A DNA stretch of 64,000 bases from assembly GCA_964012805.1 (NCBI GenBank), contig CAXGUD010000007.1:1-64000 (forward strand), read 5' to 3'. A program made the position numbers and the translations under genes. Each line of letters starts with the position of its first letter. Position 1 is the stretch's first letter. Source of the DNA: an uncultured Bacteriovoracaceae bacterium. Its GTDB lineage: Bacteria; Bdellovibrionota; Bacteriovoracia; Bacteriovoracales; Bacteriovoracaceae. Below the pieces are notes generated by a model that was not told the DNA's origin, did not search any database, and saw nothing but the letters and a program-made list of their open reading frames with translations. Shown here piece by piece: positions 46,492 through 54,770 of the stretch.

Positions 46492-46845
46492 ATGTCTCAA
46501 AAAGTAGAAGCTTTAGGAATGATCGAAACGAGAGGTTTTGTCGCTATGGTAGAAGCCTCTGATGCAATGGTTAAAGCTGCTAATGTTCAGCTTGTGCGTT
46601 ATGAGAAAACTGGTGGTGGTTTTACAACTGCTGTCATAAGAGGAGACGTCGCTGCTGTTAAAGCCGCTATTGAAGCCGGTGAAAGGGCCGCTGAAAAAGT
46701 TGGGGAGCTTGTTTCTGTTCATGTCATTCCTAGACCTCATGCGAATGTTGATCTTGCTCTTCCACTTGGTGGGAAACATGAAGGTGCTGGTTACCAGGGT
46801 TCTAGAAAAGAAGTTTATGTTCAATCTGAAGGACCAACTGCTTAA
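46492..46845 (+). CDS. BMC-H hexameric shell protein
   Basis: [23 protein letters not shown] and HVIPRPH motifs (PF00936). Confidence 0.97.
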
Positions 46846-46876
46846 GAGATTCATATTAAATTTGATCAAATATTTG

Positions 46877-46920
46877 GGGGAAGGGAAAGAGAAGAAAATC
46901 GACTCCCTTCCTCTTTTTTT
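46877..46920 (+). terminator. Internal terminator-like hairpin after BMC-H
   Basis: GGGGAAGGGA/TCCCTTCCTC stem followed by T7. Confidence 0.7.
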
Positions 46921-46965
46921 CTGTGGTCAATAGGAATATTAAAAAGGGACTTTAGGGAGCAATCA

Positions 46966-47256
46966 ATGCAAATTGGTAAAATTATTGGAACTGCCGTTTC
47001 TACAAAAAAAGATGAAAAACTAGAAGGGCTTCGTTTTCAAATAGTTGAATATATAGAGCCCTCTGGAGAGTCAACAGGTAACCATGTTATTGCAGTCGAC
47101 TCTGTGGGAGCAGGAGTAGGAGAAGTGGTTTTAGTCGCATGTGGTAGTTCTGCCCGTCTTACAAACACTTCAAAGGACAAACCAGTAGATGCCATTATAA
47201 TGGCGATTGTAGACTCTTTAGAAGGAGAAGGGAAAACCTATTACCAGAGCTACTAG
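46966..47256 (+). CDS. BMC-P pentameric vertex protein (EutN/CcmL)
   Basis: GTAVSTKK, AVDSVGAGVGE, GSSAR and DAIIMAIVD motifs. Confidence 0.96.
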   Translation: MQIGKIIGTAVSTKKDEKLEGLRFQIVEYIEPSGESTGNHVIAVDSVGAGVGEVVLVACGSSARLTNTSKDKPVDAIIMAIVDSLEGEGKTYYQSY

Positions 47257-47358
47257 AGTATTTATTCACGAGAAATTTTAATTAAGTCAGTTTAGATTCT
47301 TTGTTTGAAAGGTTTAAGCAATGAAGACAATTGAACGAAGATCCGGAGAAAGAACGCT

Positions 47359-48825
47359 ATGAATTTTACTGATCAACAAATTAACTCTATCGTTGATAAA
47401 GTCATAGGACAACTTTCAAACACGAAGGGAAGTCCTGCGGAAGCTGTTAAGGAGGGGACCAAGGAGAGTTCAAAGTCCATACCCTCCAATTATATCACCT
47501 ACCCTCAATCATCTGGAAAGTTAGGTTGTTTTCTCGATATTGATTCCGCTATAGAAGCGGCTAGAAAAGCTTTTGAGGAATACAAGCTGATACCCTTAAA
47601 GCAAAGAAAAAAAATAATCGAAGCAATAAGAGTAATATGCCTTGAAAATGTAGACGAGATGTCCAAACTTGCTGTTGAAGAAACTGGTTTAGGAAGAGTT
47701 GCAGATAAGGTAAATAAGAATATTCTTGCCATTGAAAAAACCCCAGGAGTAGAGGACCTAAAGCCTTATACTTATACTGGAGACGATGGTTTAACTCTTT
47801 TGGAAAGGGCACCTTTTGGTGTTATTGGAAGTGTAACACCTTGTACGAATCCTTCAGAGACCATTATAAATAACGGAATTGGTATGATTGCTGGTGGAAA
47901 CTCCGTTGCTTTCAATCCACACCCTTCCGCCAAAAAAGTCTCTGCCTTCACAGTGAGCCTTATGAACAAGGCGATAATATCTGAGGGGGGACCTCCAAAC
48001 CTTCTTACAACAGTTGCGAATCCAACTATTGAATCGGCCCAAAAATTAATGGTTCATCCAAAAATTCGACTCCTTGTCGTTACAGGTGGACCTCATGTTG
48101 TGAATCAAGCAATGAAATCTGGTAAAAGAGTTATTGCCGCAGGACCTGGTAACCCTCCTGTTGTTGTTGATGAAACAGCTGACTTGGATAAAGCAGGTTG
48201 TGACATCGTGAAAAGTGCAAGTTGCGATAACAATATTATTTGTGTTGTTGAAAAAGAAATTATTGTAACTCATGCAGCTGCTGAAGGTCTAAAGAAGTCT
48301 CTCATTAAGCATGGAGCCGTGGAGTTAAGCCCTTACCAAACAAGGCGTTTAGAGAAGGTTGTTCTTACAGAGAATAAAAAGGCTAACAAAAAATGGGTTG
48401 GTAAAGACGTTCAGGAAATTTTAAAAGAGATTGGAATGGACGTAGATCCATCAAAAAGGTTGGCTTTTATGGAAACCAAGGCCGATCATCCTTTTGCAGT
48501 TGAAGAACTGCTTATGCCTGTTATTCCTCTTATTAGAGTTAAAGATATAGATGAGGCGATAGAGCTTGCTTACAAACTCGAAAAAAACTGCTTTCATACA
48601 GCAGCGATCCACTCAAAAAATATAGATCATATGCATAAAATGGCGGTGAAGATGAACTGCTCAATTTTTGTAAAAAATGGACCTGCTCTTGCTGGACTAG
48701 CGATGGAGGGGGAAGGACCAACGACTTTTACAATTGCTTCTCCTACTGGTGAAGGAAACACGACGGCCCGTCACTTCACAAGAACAAGACGGTGCGTTTT
48801 ATCAGGAAATTTTAGAATCACCTGA
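47359..48825 (+). CDS. CoA-acylating aldehyde dehydrogenase (EutE/PduP-like) with N-terminal encapsulation peptide
   Basis: PCTNPSET, GPGNPP, DNNIIC and TIASPTGEG motifs; N-terminal helix QINSIVDKVIGQL. Confidence 0.95.
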   Translation: MNFTDQQINSIVDKVIGQLSNTKGSPAEAVKEGTKESSKSIPSNYITYPQSSGKLGCFLDIDSAIEAARKAFEEYKLIPLKQRKKIIEAIRVICLENVDEMSKLAVEETGLGRVADKVNKNILAIEKTPGVEDLKPYTYTGDDGLTLLERAPFGVIGSVTPCTNPSETIINNGIGMIAGGNSVAFNPHPSAKKVSAFTVSLMNKAIISEGGPPNLLTTVANPTIESAQKLMVHPKIRLLVVTGGPHVVNQAMKSGKRVIAAGPGNPPVVVDETADLDKAGCDIVKSASCDNNIICVVEKEIIVTHAAAEGLKKSLIKHGAVELSPYQTRRLEKVVLTENKKANKKWVGKDVQEILKEIGMDVDPSKRLAFMETKADHPFAVEELLMPVIPLIRVKDIDEAIELAYKLEKNCFHTAAIHSKNIDHMHKMAVKMNCSIFVKNGPALAGLAMEGEGPTTFTIASPTGEGNTTARHFTRTRRCVLSGNFRIT

Positions 48826-48863
48826 TAAATTTTAGATTTTAGTGTAAAGGAATGTTTTAATTA

Positions 48864-50231
48864 GTGAGACCAGAGAATAAAACCAAAGATATTATGCTAA
48901 GAATGAGAAATGCTGGCGTTGTTGGTACTGATAAATTGTCCGTGCCAACTTACGTTAAGTTATCATCTAAAGCCGATTTGGTCATAGCAAATGGAGCGGA
49001 GTCTGAGCCTCTTTTACATTCTGAAAAGTCCCTTCTCCATGAAAAACCAGAACTTATTATTGACGGCATAAAAATAGCTATGGAAGCTACTGGGGCGCCT
49101 AAAGCCGTGATAGCTGTTCGTTCTTCTGAGAAAGAAAGAATGAGGTCTCTTTACTCACTTTTAAAAGAAGAGAAGAACATAGATATCTTCTATTTGGAGG
49201 ATTTTTATCCATCTGGAGATGAACCTATCCTAGTTTACGAGGTGACTAAAAAATTGATTCCCGAAGGGAAGACACCTTTAGATAAGGGAATTGTTGTAGA
49301 GAAGCTTTTAAGTTTTGCTTGGATGTATCAAGGTTATCATGGGAAACCAGTTACAGAAAGACCGATAAGTGTTGTTGGCGAGGTCCAAAGACCTCAGGTC
49401 ACTTGGTTTCCAATTGGGACTCTTTACAAGGATATTTTAAATTTTGCAGGTGGAACAACAGTTGATCTAAAAAATGCTGTTGTTTTTGATGGAGGACCTC
49501 TTCAAGGTGAGGTTGTTAAGGACCTAAATATTGGTATAGGTAAAAATACATCAGCCGTCATGGTGTTACCTAAAGACCATAAAGTTTCAAAAGTAAAAAT
49601 GAAAAATTTAGAGGAAATGATCCTTCAAAATCAGGGAGTCAGTGGTGACAGCTCTATGATGGAAGACCTTTGTCCCCGCTATCAATTGGGGTATGATATT
49701 CATCCATCTGAGGTCATAAAAAGTCTTCATTTTCCTTTGATGATGAAACCTTCTTCTTTGAGATCAGCTTACTCATGTAACGACTGCTCATTATGTGAAT
49801 ATATGGGGTCCTCGACTTTAAATGAATCCCCTCGATTAATTTATAATGAATTTAAAAAAAATCTTGCTCGTCAGGAAAAGAAAGTTTCTTTAAAAAGTGG
49901 TGAGAAAGTAAATAAAGTAAGGTTAAACTACCATTATAACAAAGTTTCATGTTCTCACTTAATCAAGCAGGTTCAAGTTGAGAAGTATGATTCTTTTAAC
50001 CGCTCGATCCTTCCAAAAACAAACCCTCAAAAAGTTCGGGTACCAGTGACGAGGCACAAAGGAACTCCAGCTAAACCTGTCGTTGTTGAAGGTCAAACTT
50101 TGAAAATGGGAGATGTTATTGCTTTTTCTCCTCCCGGCGAATTGGGGACAACTTATCATGCCTCTATTCCTGGCAGAGTGAGTGAAATTAATGATCACTG
50201 GGTTGAGATTATTAAAGGGAGGAATTCATGA
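48864..50231 (+). CDS. PduS/RnfC-like flavoprotein, degenerate
   Basis: NGAESEPLL, YPSGDE, DGGP, DLCPR, CxxCxxC and HASIPGRV motifs. Confidence 0.85.
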   Translation: MRPENKTKDIMLRMRNAGVVGTDKLSVPTYVKLSSKADLVIANGAESEPLLHSEKSLLHEKPELIIDGIKIAMEATGAPKAVIAVRSSEKERMRSLYSLLKEEKNIDIFYLEDFYPSGDEPILVYEVTKKLIPEGKTPLDKGIVVEKLLSFAWMYQGYHGKPVTERPISVVGEVQRPQVTWFPIGTLYKDILNFAGGTTVDLKNAVVFDGGPLQGEVVKDLNIGIGKNTSAVMVLPKDHKVSKVKMKNLEEMILQNQGVSGDSSMMEDLCPRYQLGYDIHPSEVIKSLHFPLMMKPSSLRSAYSCNDCSLCEYMGSSTLNESPRLIYNEFKKNLARQEKKVSLKSGEKVNKVRLNYHYNKVSCSHLIKQVQVEKYDSFNRSILPKTNPQKVRVPVTRHKGTPAKPVVVEGQTLKMGDVIAFSPPGELGTTYHASIPGRVSEINDHWVEIIKGRNS

Positions 50232-50794
50232 AAGAACCTACCTTAGGGATGATAGAGCTAAAATCTGTAGCAAGAGGTATTGTTGTTACAGATGCTATAG
50301 CTAAAAAAGCACAGGTGAAAATATTAGAGGCCCACGCGGTCCAGCCAGGTAAATTTATTATTTTAATCTGTGGTGAAGTAGCAGATGTTGAAGAGTCCTT
50401 GAAAGAAGGTGTTGAGGTCGGCTCCGACTTTATTATTAATTACCTCTTCCTTCCTTACATACACAGAGACATAATTCCGGCTTTGAAGGGCAACCTTGAA
50501 AAAGAGAAAAAAGGTCCTTTGGGATCCGTTGGTATTTTGGAGTCTTTTTCTATGGTCTCTTGTGTAAGGGCCTTAGATATTGCTTTAAAAAATACACCCT
50601 TAAAGTTACTGGAAGTTCGACTTGCTAAAGATTTAGGGGGGAAAGCCTATTTCGTTTTAAGTGGTCTTCTACCTGATGTTCAGGACTCTTTAAAGCTAGC
50701 AAGTGATTCAGTGAAAGAAGAGGGAATGTTGACGAATGTCGAAATAATACCAAACCCTCATTCAGACCTTATTGAGAAAGGTCTCTATTGGTAG
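50228..50794 (+). CDS. BMC-T shell protein (PduT-like)
   Basis: Tandem BMC domains: LGMIELKSVARG, PGKF, LGGKAY. Confidence 0.92.
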   Translation: MKEPTLGMIELKSVARGIVVTDAIAKKAQVKILEAHAVQPGKFIILICGEVADVEESLKEGVEVGSDFIINYLFLPYIHRDIIPALKGNLEKEKKGPLGSVGILESFSMVSCVRALDIALKNTPLKLLEVRLAKDLGGKAYFVLSGLLPDVQDSLKLASDSVKEEGMLTNVEIIPNPHSDLIEKGLYW

Positions 50795-50803
50795 GAATTA
50801 AAT

Positions 50804-51109
50804 ATGAAGTTAGCAAAAGTGATCGGTACAGTTGTTTGTACGGTAAAAGATCCTTCTTTAGATGGTCAAAAGATCCTTCTCATTCAACCTTTGGATGATG
50901 ATCAAAAACCGGCCGGGAGACCAATCGCCTCAGTCGATACGGCCAAGGCCGGAGAAGGTGATTTGGTTTATTGGGTATTATCGAGAGAAGCTGCTTTTGC
51001 TCTTCCCAATTCATTTGCCCCTGTGGACTCTGCAATCGTGGGGATTGTTGATGATGTTCATAAAGAAGACGTAGGCATAACAAATAAAGAAGAAATTTTT
51101 AGAAATTAA
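50804..51109 (+). CDS. BMC-P vertex protein
   Basis: AKVIGTVVCTVK; DSAIVGIVD. Confidence 0.95.
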   Translation: MKLAKVIGTVVCTVKDPSLDGQKILLIQPLDDDQKPAGRPIASVDTAKAGEGDLVYWVLSREAAFALPNSFAPVDSAIVGIVDDVHKEDVGITNKEEIFRN

Positions 51110-51130
51110 AGTGAAAGGAAGGCCTAAAAG

Positions 51131-51406
51131 ATGATTTTAGCAAGAGTAATAGGAAATGTGGTTTCTACAGAAAAGCACCCTTGTTACAAAGGCCATAAGA
51201 TTATGATTGTCCAACCAGTCAATGCTCACGGTGAGGATAAAGGATATTCCTTTTTATCTTGTGATGCTACTCAAGCGGGACCAGGTGACCTTGTTTTAGT
51301 TCAGCAAGAAGGAAATACAGCAAGGCAATTGTTGGGAACAAAAAATGATCCATTCCATTCCGTCATCGTAGGGATTGTTGATGAGATTCATGTTCCAAAG
51401 GAATAG
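51131..51406 (+). CDS. BMC-P vertex protein
   Basis: ARVIGNVVSTEKH; AGPGD; IVGIVD. Confidence 0.95.
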   Translation: MILARVIGNVVSTEKHPCYKGHKIMIVQPVNAHGEDKGYSFLSCDATQAGPGDLVLVQQEGNTARQLLGTKNDPFHSVIVGIVDEIHVPKE

Positions 51407-51444
51407 TTTAAAAAGTATTAATTAAAAAAATTGAAAAGAATAAT

Positions 51445-52392
51445 ATGGGAGAAGGTCAAATGATAGAAAAAAACACGAACTTGGAAGACGTTGTGTCTCT
51501 CATTAGTAAGAAGGTTGCAGAGAGGCTTAATGGTCAAATGACAGGAACAAATCCCTCAACGACTCATAAAATTGAAAAGAAGACTGAGGAAAGCGCAAAT
51601 GATTACAATCAAGAGCTAGCTTCAATGATTGATCACACTTTTTTAAAGCCTGAGGCTTCTAAATGCCAACTAGAGAAATTATGCGAAGAAGCAAGAGCTT
51701 ATAAGTTTGCTACAGTTTGTGTTAATTCTTGTAATATTCCTTTGGTAACAGAGCTTTTAAGAGGTTCTTCTGTTAAGCCTATTGCTGTTGTTGGTTTTCC
51801 TCTTGGAGCAGCGACGACACAATCAAAGGTCTTTGAATCAAAGGAAGCCATCAATCAGGGTGCAAGAGAGATTGATATGGTTGTTAACCTTGGGGCCCTA
51901 AAAAGCAAGGACTACGGGACAGTTTTTGAAGATATCAAGCAAGTTGTTGAAGCATCGGCTCCTTATCCAGTTAAAGTCATACTAGAGACTTCGAGTCTTA
52001 ATGATGAAGAAAAAGTCGTTGCTTGTGCTCTTTCAAAAACAGCGGGAGCTGCTTTTGTTAAAACTTCAACTGGTTTTGGTGGCGGCGGAGCAACTGTTGA
52101 CGACATTAAATTAATGAGGCGTATTGTTGGCAATTCAATCGGTGTTAAAGCTTCGGGTGGAGTCAGGACAACTCAAGACGCCAAAAATATGGTTGAAGCT
52201 GGAGCTAACAGAATTGGTGCTTCTTCAAGTATCTCTATTGTTAAGTTATCCTCTGATACAAGTAGTACAAAAGGCGGAAGAAAAACCTATGGCAAAAGAT
52301 ATGAGAGAAAACCTTATGTAAGAAGAGGATCTCGAGTCGTAGGATCTTCAACGATAGCGAAACCTCAAACTGGAAAAAGTGGGGGCTATTAG
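51445..52392 (+). CDS. deoC: Deoxyribose-phosphate aldolase with N-terminal encapsulation peptide (start may be 51460)
   Basis: IDHTFLKP, GFPLG, EIDMV, KTSTGF and KASGG motifs; N-terminal helix LEDVVSLISKKVAERL. Confidence 0.95.
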   Translation: MGEGQMIEKNTNLEDVVSLISKKVAERLNGQMTGTNPSTTHKIEKKTEESANDYNQELASMIDHTFLKPEASKCQLEKLCEEARAYKFATVCVNSCNIPLVTELLRGSSVKPIAVVGFPLGAATTQSKVFESKEAINQGAREIDMVVNLGALKSKDYGTVFEDIKQVVEASAPYPVKVILETSSLNDEEKVVACALSKTAGAAFVKTSTGFGGGGATVDDIKLMRRIVGNSIGVKASGGVRTTQDAKNMVEAGANRIGASSSISIVKLSSDTSSTKGGRKTYGKRYERKPYVRRGSRVVGSSTIAKPQTGKSGGY

Positions 52393-52506
52393 AATAAGTT
52401 CCAAATCTTTCAAAGAAATTAAGACGGATATTAAGTATTCAATATTAAAAACTAAATAATTAAATAATTACATAATTAAAATTTTAAGACTATTAGGGAG
52501 TAAAGA

Positions 52507-53157
52507 ATGTCAAAAGCGAATTTTGAATTGAGAACGTTAAGTTTTATAGACAGCCTTCAACCACAATTGGCCCAATATATGGCAAAGGATAATAGAGTTT
52601 ATGATCCTGAGGAGTATGATTCGGCCCTTTTTATTGAAATTGCCCCCGCCATGGAAATTCATGAAATGATTGATATTGCCCTCAAGTCAACAAGCTGTCG
52701 TCTTGGAACAGTTGTGACTGAGAGAGTTTTCGGCCTTATGGAAGTTCACCACAAAGATCAAGGTGAAGTAAGAGAAGCAGGCCACGCGATTCTTGAAGCG
52801 ACAGGCCTCACTGAAGGTGACCGCGCTGAAGTCAAAGTCATGTGTAATAAAATTATTAGAAGTATTGAGCAAGACCACTCCATTATGTTTACAGGGCTTT
52901 CCAGAGGAAACATGGTTCTTGCTGGTGAATCAGTCTTTATTATGGAAGTAACTCCAGCTGCTTACCTTTCCGCTGCTTGTAACGAAGCTTTAAAAGCTGC
53001 TGACGTTAAGCTTATTGATGTTAAGCCTTATGGTGCTTCTGGAAGGCTTATTATGAGTGGTGAAGAATCACAAATTGATTCAGCTGCTGAAGCTGCCAAT
53101 AAGCTTATTGCTAACTTAAACCAAATGAAAGAAACAGGCGGAAATCAATTAGGCTAG
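52507..53157 (+). CDS. BMC-T(dp) stacked trimer shell protein (CcmP/CsoS1D-like)
   Basis: LRTLSFIDSLQPQLA, ERVFG and ACNEALKAA motifs. Confidence 0.9.
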   Translation: MSKANFELRTLSFIDSLQPQLAQYMAKDNRVYDPEEYDSALFIEIAPAMEIHEMIDIALKSTSCRLGTVVTERVFGLMEVHHKDQGEVREAGHAILEATGLTEGDRAEVKVMCNKIIRSIEQDHSIMFTGLSRGNMVLAGESVFIMEVTPAAYLSAACNEALKAADVKLIDVKPYGASGRLIMSGEESQIDSAAEAANKLIANLNQMKETGGNQLG

Positions 53158-53208
53158 AAAGGAAACCCTTTCACCGAGTCTTAAGTAAAGTTTATCAGGA
53201 ATAAAAAA

Positions 53209-53979
53209 ATGGGGAATCGGAGAGAATATATAATTAGAGGCATTGTTGATATTTGCAGTAAGCTTGATCAAAAAGGGTTTGTTGCAAATCATGATGGCAA
53301 CGTGACAGCTAAGTTTGAGGATGGTTTTCTCGCGACTCCTACAGCAGAGGCGAAAGCCGCTATTACTCCTGAGATGATTTTAGATCTTGATAAGGAAGGA
53401 AAAAAGACTGGTGGGATTGGGAAGCCTTTTAGTGAATTGAACCTCCACCTTGCTGCATATAATGAAAGGGAGGAAGCTCGGGCCGTTGTTCATGCTCACC
53501 CTCCCTTTGCAACAGCAAGAGGGCTTGTGGGAAAACCACTCGAAATTTCTCTTCCTGAAGCCGTTGTTTCCATTGGTCACATCATTCCCGTAGCTGATTA
53601 CTCCATGCCGGGTAGTGTTGCTAATGATCGAGTCGTGTGCGAAGCTTTAAGACAAAGTGATGTCTTCATGATTGCAGGCAATGGTGTTTTAAGTATTGGT
53701 AAAAACTTAGAAGAAGCCTATTTGAGAGTGGAACTTCTAGAACATGTGGCCAAGATTGATTTTTATGCTACTTCTATGGGACCAGTGATGACTTTGCCAG
53801 AAGCTGACCTTCAAAAGCTTTTAGAAAAAAGAGCAAAGCTTGGTTTAGGGCCTAAAGCTTCCAATCACGTTACGAAAAATATTTTGGAAAATTATGATCA
53901 AGAAAAAGATAATATTCAATTTGGTCAACTCCAGGATATTATTGCTAAGGAAGTAAACCGGTATCTTGAAAATTCTTAA
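53209..53979 (+). CDS. Class II aldolase with C-terminal encapsulation peptide
   Basis: DGNV, SELNLH and VVHAHPP motifs; C-terminal helix LQDIIAKEVNRYL. Confidence 0.9.
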   Translation: MGNRREYIIRGIVDICSKLDQKGFVANHDGNVTAKFEDGFLATPTAEAKAAITPEMILDLDKEGKKTGGIGKPFSELNLHLAAYNEREEARAVVHAHPPFATARGLVGKPLEISLPEAVVSIGHIIPVADYSMPGSVANDRVVCEALRQSDVFMIAGNGVLSIGKNLEEAYLRVELLEHVAKIDFYATSMGPVMTLPEADLQKLLEKRAKLGLGPKASNHVTKNILENYDQEKDNIQFGQLQDIIAKEVNRYLENS

Positions 53980-54008
53980 AACGACTTAGACCTATTGAGG
54001 AGTAACTT

Positions 54009-54770
54009 ATGAGAGTTCCTTTTATCGCAGGCAATTGGAAGATGAATATGACAATCGCTGAAGCGGTTGAACTAGTCAATGGCATTCAGATTGGATTGAA
54101 GTGGCCTGAAGAAGTGGACGTGGTGGTTGCTCCACCTTTTACTGCATTAAAAATGATTTCTGAGGTTTCAAAAGATAGTTATATAGCAGTTTCAGCCCAA
54201 AATATTCATCAAGAAGAAAATGGCGCCTATACCGGTGAAATAGCTGCTTCATTCGTGAAGGATGCGGGCGCAACTTATGCCATCATTGGTCACTCAGAGA
54301 GGCGTCAATACTTTGGTGAAACTGATGAGGTGGTTAATAAAAAAGTAAGAGTTGCTTTAAAGCATGAACTTAAGCCTATTGTTTGTGTTGGTGAAACATT
54401 AGAGCAGCGGGAAAAAGGTGATTTTTTCACAGTCATCGAAGAACAGCTTTCAAAAGGCTTAGAAGACCTGACAAAAGTTTTGGCCTCTGAGATCGTCATT
54501 GCTTACGAGCCAGTATGGGCCATTGGAACTGGGAAAGTGGCGACTCCAACTCAAGTTGAAGAAGTTCATGAGAAAATAAGAAATTTCCTTAAAAAGACTT
54601 TTTCTGATGAAGTGGGAGAGTCTGTTCGAATCCTCTATGGGGGAAGTGTAAAGCCTAGTAACAGCCAGGAAATTCTGGCCCTTCCAAATGTTGATGGAGC
54701 TCTTGTTGGGGGAGCGAGCTTGAAGGCGCCTGATTTTATAAATATAATAAAAAGCCTTCCGTCAAAGTAG
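54009..54770 (+). CDS. tpiA: Triosephosphate isomerase
   Basis: AGNWKMN, GHSERR, AYEPVWAIGTG and YGGSV motifs. Confidence 0.98.
   Translation: MRVPFIAGNWKMNMTIAEAVELVNGIQIGLKWPEEVDVVVAPPFTALKMISEVSKDSYIAVSAQNIHQEENGAYTGEIAASFVKDAGATYAIIGHSERRQYFGETDEVVNKKVRVALKHELKPIVCVGETLEQREKGDFFTVIEEQLSKGLEDLTKVLASEIVIAYEPVWAIGTGKVATPTQVEEVHEKIRNFLKKTFSDEVGESVRILYGGSVKPSNSQEILALPNVDGALVGGASLKAPDFINIIKSLPSK

What the first reader, a model, noticed from the sequence alone, without database searches (positions are those of the whole stretch)
48864..50794. Coordinated loss of redox ligands in the PduS/PduT pair
Seen in the PduS-like protein: GVVGTDKLSVPT where the family has GVVGAGGAGFPT; NGAESEP instead of NGAECEP; the first ferredoxin motif lost CxxCxxC but kept CP (DLCPR); the second kept CNDCSLC but lost its CP. 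Because ferredoxin clusters are cross-ligated, this pattern removes exactly one 4Fe-4S cluster and preserves the other. The adjacent PduT-like protein has VQPGKF in place of the cluster-binding CPGK. Both ORFs are intact, which points to repurposing (structural role or altered pore) rather than decay.
Basis: partly seen in the sequence, partly recalled or inferred. Interest (0 to 1): 0.7.

Follow-up and report, generated by a model that had tools for sequence, protein, structure and literature searches.

The report
Disconnected electron wire in bacterial microcompartment
A two-protein wire that normally carries electrons out of a bacterial protein organelle has here lost its NADH-binding loop and the cysteines for two of its three iron-sulfur clusters, yet both genes stay intact and conserved, so the pair is likely redox-dead and probably kept as a structural part of the shell.

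Summary
The genes are the MNdh (PduS) / BMC-T (PduT) pair of an SPU5-type sugar-phosphate microcompartment operon in a marine Bdellovibrionota genome. PduS lacks the glycine loop and all four cysteines of one 4Fe-4S site. It keeps all four of the other site. PduT lacks its pore cysteine. This is not the family norm: 324 of 349 complete homologues keep both sites, and 6 of 7 published SPU5 pairs keep CPGK. It contradicts the published statement that the pore cysteine is present on all MNdh partners, although one such pair sits in that paper's own dataset. The same site was lost in three separate lineages, and the other site was never lost. Selection is purifying but relaxed: pN/pS is about 0.12-0.16, and dN is five times that of the neighbouring AldDH. 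A same-family genome with the operon in the same neighbourhood has deleted pduS cleanly. Best reading: a redox-dead, NqrA-like structural relic, probably docked on the shell trimer and dispensable in a relative. Binding, metal content and flavin content are untested. New variant of a known kind.

The parts
48864..50231 (+). PduS/MNdh-derived protein, 455 aa; four-domain MNdh architecture; glycine loop and one 4Fe-4S cysteine set lost
   Evidence: Pfam PF01512, PF10531, weak PF13534, PF13375; AlphaFold2 pLDDT 91.9; RnfC Z 24.6-26.3, rmsd 2.1-2.9, 312-318 aligned; only PduS/RnfC-like match in the genome
48924..48947 (+). Degenerate NADH/FMN glycine loop, residues 21-28 (GTDKLSVP against GAGGxGFP)
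   Evidence: G23, G24, G26, F27 at 100% in 112 intact rows; the equivalent Gly67 and Phe71 of Aquifex NuoF contact the nucleotide (mapping inferred from the loop alignment)
48990..49010 (+). NGAESEP motif; N43, G44, E46, E48, P49 kept in the clade; C47S tolerated in complex I
49641..49676 (+). First ferredoxin motif: C260S, C263S, C266M (lost site A); C270-P271 kept (site B)
49776..49811 (+). Second ferredoxin motif: C305, C308, C311 kept (site B); C316S (fourth ligand of site A) lost
   Evidence: assignment of ligands to sites follows the standard cross-ligation of two-cluster ferredoxin domains (established knowledge, recalled)
50019..50219 (+). C-terminal barrel-sandwich hybrid domain; the only domain more conserved in the degenerate clade than among intact sisters
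   Evidence: identity 0.66 between the degenerate subclades against 0.58 among sisters
50228..50794 (+). PduT-like single-layer BMC-T shell trimer subunit without the pore cysteine
   Evidence: PF00936 x2; PduT 3PAC E 1.5e-34
50342..50353 (+). Pore motif QPGK in place of CP(G/S)K
50429..50437 (+). F68-I69-I70, the equivalent of the MNdh-contacting hydrophobic patch of BMC-T(SE); still hydrophobic
   Evidence: patch from footprinting in PMC11626177; spacing from the gapless alignment; census
46492..46845 (+). BMC-H shell hexamer
46966..47256 (+). BMC-P vertex protein 1
47359..48825 (+). PduP-type CoA-acylating aldehyde dehydrogenase (the source of NADH in the lumen)
   Evidence: NF011927 655 bits, cut-off 403
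50804..51406 (+). BMC-P vertex proteins 2 and 3
51445..52392 (+). Deoxyribose-phosphate aldolase (DERA) with N-terminal extension, the SPU signature enzyme
   Evidence: TIGR00126 271 bits, cut-off 117, match starts at residue 57
52507..53157 (+). BMC-T(dp), CcmP-like double-layer gated-pore trimer
   Evidence: NF053796 E 1.1e-56, below its cut-off; Tdp at this position in SPU5 loci
53209..53979 (+). Class II aldolase
   Evidence: PF00596
54009..54770 (+). Triosephosphate isomerase
   Evidence: PF00121

Best explanation
The pair is the MNdh/BMC-T electron-export module of an SPU5 microcompartment that has lost its NADH-binding loop, one set of 4Fe-4S cysteines and the pore cysteine, so it likely no longer recycles NAD+ and is probably kept as a non-catalytic piece docked on the shell trimer. 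Shown: the sequence losses, their coupling across loci, the retention of the other four cysteines, the predicted intact fold, and purifying but relaxed selection. Inferred: the lost site lies next to the flavin. The kept site (4Fe-4S or possibly Zn) holds the surface that docks on PduT. The bound protein would stiffen or plug the now cluster-free pore, much as cofactor-less NqrA derives from RnfC. NAD(H) would be exchanged through the gated BMC-T(dp) pore, because the locus has no alcohol dehydrogenase. The role is weak enough that a relative has dropped the gene.
For: Site A is lost and site B kept in 25 of 349 complete distinct homologues (redundant, two clades); none lost B. Among 150 representatives at 50% identity, 2 lost A, 1 was partial, and none lost B (the 2 flagged rows keep all cysteines on inspection). 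Three separate losses are forced by starred branches with the motif columns left out. One origin for the first two lineages is marginally rejected (p-AU 0.041). The glycine loop and site A go in either order, and B always stays. PduT Cys is lost in 3 of 3 degenerate pairs and kept in 132 of 132 intact pairs. Synonymous sites are saturated between G000 and G002 while pduS dN is 0.34 and the frame stays open. Population variants are 28 synonymous to 12 nonsynonymous against a neutral synonymous share of 0.23-0.29. R272 and G276 of the MNdh-specific segment are invariant in 119 rows. The PduT patch position is F/L/M in 6 of 6 clade sequences and Asp in 3 of 3 sequences of the clade whose one sequenced genome lacks pduS; no D/E/K/R occurs in 224 Cys-bearing ones. 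MNdh binding rigidifies BMC-T(SE) (PMC11626177). NqrA is the precedent for cofactor loss in this fold.
Against: G022 (99% complete) has the same operon with pduS cleanly deleted, so the protein is not needed for an SPU5 shell. The PduS/AldDH distance ratio is 5.1 in this genus against a median of 1.29 (maximum 2.35) in 66 intact pairs. Single Cys-to-Ala mutants of Citrobacter PduS lost both clusters and the FMN (PMC2982820), so a lone cluster may not form. Several flavin-pocket residues (K32, N43, E46, E48, Y115, D119) are still invariant, which a purely structural role does not need. The patch position also varies widely among intact PduT. Which cluster is flavin-proximal was not established.
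Confidence: 0.5

Rival explanations
1. Slow way-station to gene loss. The wire was broken, and the protein persists only because a misfolded or frameshifted product would harm the coupled pduT gene or shell assembly. It has no positive function.
For: Clean deletion in G022, whose operon lies beside the same DUF6178, fabI and hemN-like genes as in G000 and G002; the 7 other regions compared show none of these flanks. Rate is relaxed about fivefold. The stop and start codons overlap (ATGA). The Haliangium BMC-T has no pore cysteine and only 7% of HO loci have MNdh.
Against: The frame and four cysteines have survived saturating synonymous divergence. pN/pS is 0.12-0.16 today. Three lineages keep the same cysteines. 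The C-terminal domain is more conserved than in intact sisters. G022 shows that deletion is available.
Confidence: 0.22
2. Repurposed redox sensor or one-electron gate. The kept 4Fe-4S cluster senses oxygen or redox state and controls whether the protein plugs the cluster-free PduT pore.
For: Site B cysteines are invariant in all lineages. Clade-specific residues are fixed around the lost site (Q257, G258, V259, S260, S263, S264, H289, F290, P291) and around the PduT pore (Q29, A35, A37, Q39, K134, D135). Pore-cysteine mutants are reported to be more permeable.
Against: There is no direct evidence of an iron-sulfur cluster, and four cysteines could bind Zn. There is no partner redox centre. 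Deletion is tolerated in G022. Oxidase gene content does not separate degenerate from intact genomes.
Confidence: 0.16
3. Short-circuited flavoenzyme. Flavin still binds, and NADH (or another donor) is oxidised directly by oxygen inside the shell, so the clusters are not needed.
For: Intact MNdh oxidises NADH with O2 at kcat 20 per s. Aerobically purified PduS is yellow and carries flavin. The inner pocket residues are kept. In lineage 2 the loop is intact or nearly so (P0261, P0266). The locus has no alcohol dehydrogenase, and the genome's one Fe-ADH lies in an unrelated operon.
Against: In this clade G23 is D/E, G24 is K/T/D, F27 is V/M/L, and N147 is K in the window's subclade. The loop sequence differs between subclades, as expected of an unused site. 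The reading fits lineage 2 better than this protein.
Confidence: 0.12

Closest known systems
MNdh (PduS) / BMC-T(SE) (PduT) cofactor-recycling module (Sutter et al. 2024, PMC11626177; PduS biochemistry PMC2982820)
   Same: Four-domain architecture, adjacent gene pair, locus with AldDH, predicted RnfC-like fold.
   Different: No glycine loop, four of eight cysteines, no pore cysteine. The paper reports the pore motif on all MNdh partners, but row CL889_00090/00095 of its Dataset S1 is a pair of this clade.
SPU5 sugar-phosphate utilising microcompartment (Dwyer et al. 2024, PMC11585597; loci in Dataset S1 of PMC11626177)
   Same: Same gene order (H, P, AldDH, PduS, Ts, P, P, DERA, Tdp, class II aldolase, TIM); no RPI, PTAC or alcohol dehydrogenase in the locus.
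   Different: 6 of 7 listed SPU5 pairs keep CPGK and their cluster motifs; this clade does not.
NqrA of Na+-NQR (cofactor-less derivative of RnfC)
   Same: A member of the same fold family that lost redox cofactors and is kept, with a presumed structural role.
   Different: NqrA lost FMN and both clusters and belongs to a membrane complex. This protein keeps one four-cysteine site and sits in a microcompartment operon.
Haliangium ochraceum BMC-T1 (5DIH), cysteine-less single-layer trimer
   Same: PduT-type trimer without the pore cysteine.
   Different: That trimer has no MNdh neighbour. Here the cysteine-less trimer is still next to a full-length MNdh-derived gene.

Membership tests
MNdh (PduS) | PF01512 + PF10531 + 4Fe-4S dicluster + C-terminal PF13375 architecture | tested here: met
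   (the dicluster model is below its cut-off, 20 against 22.2 bits)
MNdh (PduS) | Adjacent BMC-T(s) gene in a locus with AldDH | tested here: met
MNdh (PduS) | Glycine-rich NADH/FMN loop | tested here: not met
MNdh (PduS) | Eight cysteines for two 4Fe-4S clusters | tested here: not met
   four of eight
MNdh (PduS) | Bound FMN and NADH oxidation | not testable with these tools
   needs purified protein
BMC-T(SE) (PduT) | Tandem PF00936, PduT subtype | tested here: met
BMC-T(SE) (PduT) | CP(G/S)K pore motif | tested here: not met
   QPGK
BMC-T(SE) (PduT) | Complex with MNdh | not tested
SPU5 microcompartment | DERA with N-terminal extension plus AldDH | tested here: met
SPU5 microcompartment | BMC-P triplet, BMC-T(s), BMC-T(dp), class II aldolase, no RPI, SPU5 gene order | tested here: met
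   (gene order compared by eye with the listed loci; the authors' HMMs were not run)
SPU5 microcompartment | Shell formation and deoxyribose 5-phosphate turnover | not testable with these tools
   needs experiment
NqrA-type cofactor-less subunit | No cluster ligands left | tested here: not met
   C270, C305, C308, C311 kept; an analogy, not membership

The most novel reading that the evidence does not exclude
Microcompartments have repeatedly turned their electron-export enzyme into a single-cluster plug or redox-sensing gate for a shell pore. This would be a shell-associated pseudoenzyme that arose at least three times by the same route, in organelles that have neither known NAD+-recycling system.
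Probability: 0.2. Interest if true: 0.75.

Novelty: new variant of a known kind. Interest (0 to 1): 0.52.

Why it matters
It is a natural exception to a published 'universal' rule for the MNdh/BMC-T(SE) module, and it supplies a graded natural series in related operons: intact, loop lost, one site lost, gene deleted. The series makes two open questions testable. One is how AldDH-containing microcompartments recycle NAD+ with neither alcohol dehydrogenase nor MNdh, which PMC11626177 names as unresolved. The other is whether MNdh has a structural role at the shell apart from electron transfer. Repeated retention of the same four cysteines predicts which cluster faces the shell. An oxygen-tolerant, redox-silent pair would also be a convenient cargo anchor for engineered shells, if it still binds. 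It is not a new kind of system, and the role may be minor.

Tried and rejected
Frameshift, sequencing artefact or pseudogene: rejected. The same pattern is in G002 and in several protein clusters, and variants are mostly synonymous. Intact paralogue elsewhere in the genome: one match only. Substitutions are the SPU norm: rejected. Oxygen as the driver: inconclusive. COX1 was found in 4 of 4 Cys-less genomes and in 4 of 6 intact ones. PduL/PTAC: 0 of 5 genomes. Complex prediction of PduS with the PduT trimer was not available, so there is no verdict on binding. Assigning the flavin-proximal cluster: not settled. No ligand numbers were found in 4 of 5 supplements of PMC11889175 (file 1 unreadable). 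Structural alignment ends against NuoF fit two registers. The first fold with 7 sequences failed (pLDDT 46.9). The second used 119 mostly intact homologues, so it cannot show loss of stability. Exact dN/dS between G000 and G002 is not estimable, because dS is saturated. Careful trees did not finish, so quick trees were used. Whether G022 shares one loss with this clade is unresolved: the PduT tree (support 91) and shared flanks favour it, while the nine-gene tree puts G022 with intact G035 (98, with a composition warning). RNA: two short contigs from RNA libraries lie on pduS; no silent control was laid, so this is not proof of transcription. Promoter scan: no excess over shuffles. The first genome-contig scan found nothing. 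The family of the lineage-2 genome gave no further copy (1 of 19). Genomic context is unknown for P0035, P0242, P0244, P0261, P0266, P0325, P0460 and P0472.

Full report
Locus. The finding covers two genes in an 11-gene operon at 46492-54770: BMC-H, BMC-P, PduP-type aldehyde dehydrogenase, PduS-like, PduT-like, two BMC-P, DERA, BMC-T(dp), class II aldolase and TIM. The order matches the SPU5 loci listed in Dataset S1 of PMC11626177. A cluster member of a close homologue is named Bdellovibrionota, and same-family genomes give proteins identical to Bdellovibrionales records. Four marine or seawater runs carry the stretch when laid. The genome has one PduS/RnfC-like match and no PduL. Its single Fe-ADH lies in an unrelated operon with a glutamine-synthetase-like gene, by my reading of the ORFs.

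Observation. All quoted motifs are present. Against 112 intact homologues, the window's clade has lost G23, G24 and F27 of the glycine loop, and C260, C263, C266 and C316. It keeps C270, C305, C308 and C311. By the standard cross-ligation of two-cluster ferredoxin domains (recalled), this is one whole site lost (A) and one whole site kept (B). The equivalent loop residues in Aquifex NuoF contact the nucleotide (Gly67, Phe71; PMC9299107 passages). Two details need correction. The second motif's proline is already gone in intact sisters. Ser at position 47 is native in complex I, although C54A in Citrobacter PduS was colourless. The model built from 119 sequences is confident (pLDDT 91.9) and matches RnfC (Z 24.6-26.3, rmsd 2.1-2.9). 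It leans on intact homologues.

How rare. Of 352 distinct PduS-like proteins held, 3 were partial, 324 keep both sites, 25 lack A only, and none lacks B (the 25 are redundant). Of 150 representatives at 50% identity, 147 have all eight cysteines, 2 lack A and 1 is partial. Of 166 regions examined, 135 had a complete PduS with an adjacent PduT (some are duplicates). All 132 with intact PduS have the pore Cys, and the 3 degenerate ones have Q, Q or S. Eight more loci were intact on both genes. PMC11626177 states that the pore motif was found on all MNdh partners. Its Dataset S1 nonetheless holds one QPGK trimer, CL889_00090, next to an MNdh of this clade.

Repeated origin. With the motif columns removed, three separate losses of site A are forced by starred branches. 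Lineage 1 is the window's clade. Lineage 2 holds P0035, P0241/L097, P0242, P0244, P0261 and P0266, nested beside intact P0024 and P0243. Lineage 3 is P0472. One origin for lineages 1 and 2 is only marginally rejected (p-AU 0.041, 23 rows). L097 is a different organelle type, with ethanolamine ammonia-lyase genes, and its PduT reads SPGK. The order of loss differs. P0325 (sister to the window's clade, support 85) and P0460 (sister to P0472) lost the loop but keep eight cysteines. P0261 and P0266 lost site A but keep the loop. All trees are quick trees with SH-aLRT support only.

Selection. Between G000 and same-genus G002, PduS is 55% identical while the ten neighbours are 81-94% identical. PduS dN is 0.338 against 0.066 for AldDH. 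In two intact pairs the two rates are equal (0.069/0.070 and 0.111/0.118). Synonymous sites are saturated, so omega cannot be fixed but is far below 1. In environmental strains, the 40 listed pduS variants (of 57 found) are 28 synonymous and 12 nonsynonymous. Four of the 12 lie in a multi-base patch with compensating indels, where single-base calls, including one apparent stop, are unreliable. By hand this gives pN/pS of about 0.16, or 0.12 without the patch. PduT shows 16 to 1 and AldDH 10 to 3, from 40 of 331 rows. Constraint is weakest in the ferredoxin domain relative to sisters and strongest in the C-terminal domain.

Against a needed function. Of 237 family genomes, 13 have a PduS match and 14 a PduT match. 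The extra one, G022 (99% complete), has the whole operon with AldDH running straight into an SSGK PduT, and no PduS match in the genome. It shares the flanking DUF6178, fabI and hemN-like genes with G000 and G002. So deletion is a viable end state. Also, single cysteine mutants of Citrobacter PduS lost both clusters and the flavin, so site B may not hold iron.

Mechanism. In the intact module, NADH reduces FMN, and electrons pass through two clusters to the pore cluster and out. Here three links are cut, so export is very unlikely (inference). I infer that A is the flavin-proximal cluster for three reasons: it follows the SLBB domain where the N3 motif of NuoF-type proteins aligns, it is lost together with the loop in all three lineages, and the segment bracketed by the site B ligands carries MNdh-specific invariant residues R272 and G276. 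This was not confirmed structurally. Site B would then hold the docking face. A weak supporting sign is the PduT position equivalent to the footprinted F67. It is hydrophobic in 6 of 6 clade sequences and Asp in 3 of 3 from the G022 clade, against no charged residue in 224 Cys-bearing trimers. NqrA shows that this fold can be kept without cofactors. With no PTAC, acetyl-CoA is already proposed to leave SPU shells through BMC-T(dp). NAD(H) could use the same route, which would free the wire from selection (inference). Binding itself was not modelled.

Literature seen. PMC11626177: text parts 1-4 of 8, passages, and term searches of both supplements; its figures were not visible, and Figs. 2 and S3-S5 bear on cluster order. 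Passages only: PMC2982820, PMC9588780, PMC11889175, PMC12174285, PMC11585597, bioRxiv 10.1101/2025.11.08.687404 (supplements not seen), PMC6560083, PMC9299107. I found no description of a degenerate MNdh/BMC-T pair in searches. That library lacks most subscription papers, and three papers listed were not opened. Earlier scan notes showed nothing on this sequence; the 8 of 51 shown describe other PduS/PduT loci, none as degenerate.

Verdict. The feature is real, rare and recurrent, and it is an exception to a published rule. It fails the membership tests for a working MNdh and BMC-T(SE), although it descends from them. It is most likely a redox-dead structural relic (0.5). Slow loss (0.22), redox-sensing gate (0.16) and flavin-only oxidase (0.12) are the rivals. 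New variant of a known kind; interest 0.52.

Noticed in passing
L097:2815-11911 (G261): A compact ethanolamine microcompartment in a Bdellovibrionales genome: eutB, eutC, a eutL-like BMC gene, BMC-H, BMC-P, AldDH, degenerate PduS, SPGK PduT, BMC-T(dp) and an amino-acid permease. Its shell and AldDH genes group with SPU5 operons, which suggests a swap of the signature enzyme.
   Followed up: partly
L199:5036-11346 (G022:C4): SPU5 operon with pduS cleanly deleted and a cysteine-less PduT; it has neither known NAD+-recycling gene in the locus.
   Followed up: yes
proteins P0325, P0435, P0460: MNdh homologues with the glycine loop destroyed but all eight cysteines kept; contexts unknown.
   Followed up: partly
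PMC11626177 Dataset S1, row CL889: The one QPGK pair in the dataset is labelled Dehalococcoidia, but by eye it belongs to this Bdellovibrionota clade; possibly a mis-binned contig.
   Followed up: no
window 57677-60979 (-): 1100-aa protein with four scytovirin (PF20888) lectin-like stretches separated by PK-rich linkers at the C-terminus. The neighbour at 60985-63066 shares similar N-terminal motifs and has no Pfam match.
   Followed up: partly
window 36742-39516 (-): Two tandem paralogous proteins of 462 and 451 aa with signal-peptide-like N-termini and no Pfam match.
   Followed up: no
window 46492-46845 and 51445-52392: The BMC-H has a C-terminal extension of about 25 aa, and DERA has a basic C-terminal tail beyond the enzyme domain.
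   Followed up: no
window 51445-52392 and G000:C1:236676-237278: A second deoC copy (56% identical) lies outside the locus, so a cytoplasmic route for deoxyribose phosphate probably exists.
   Followed up: no
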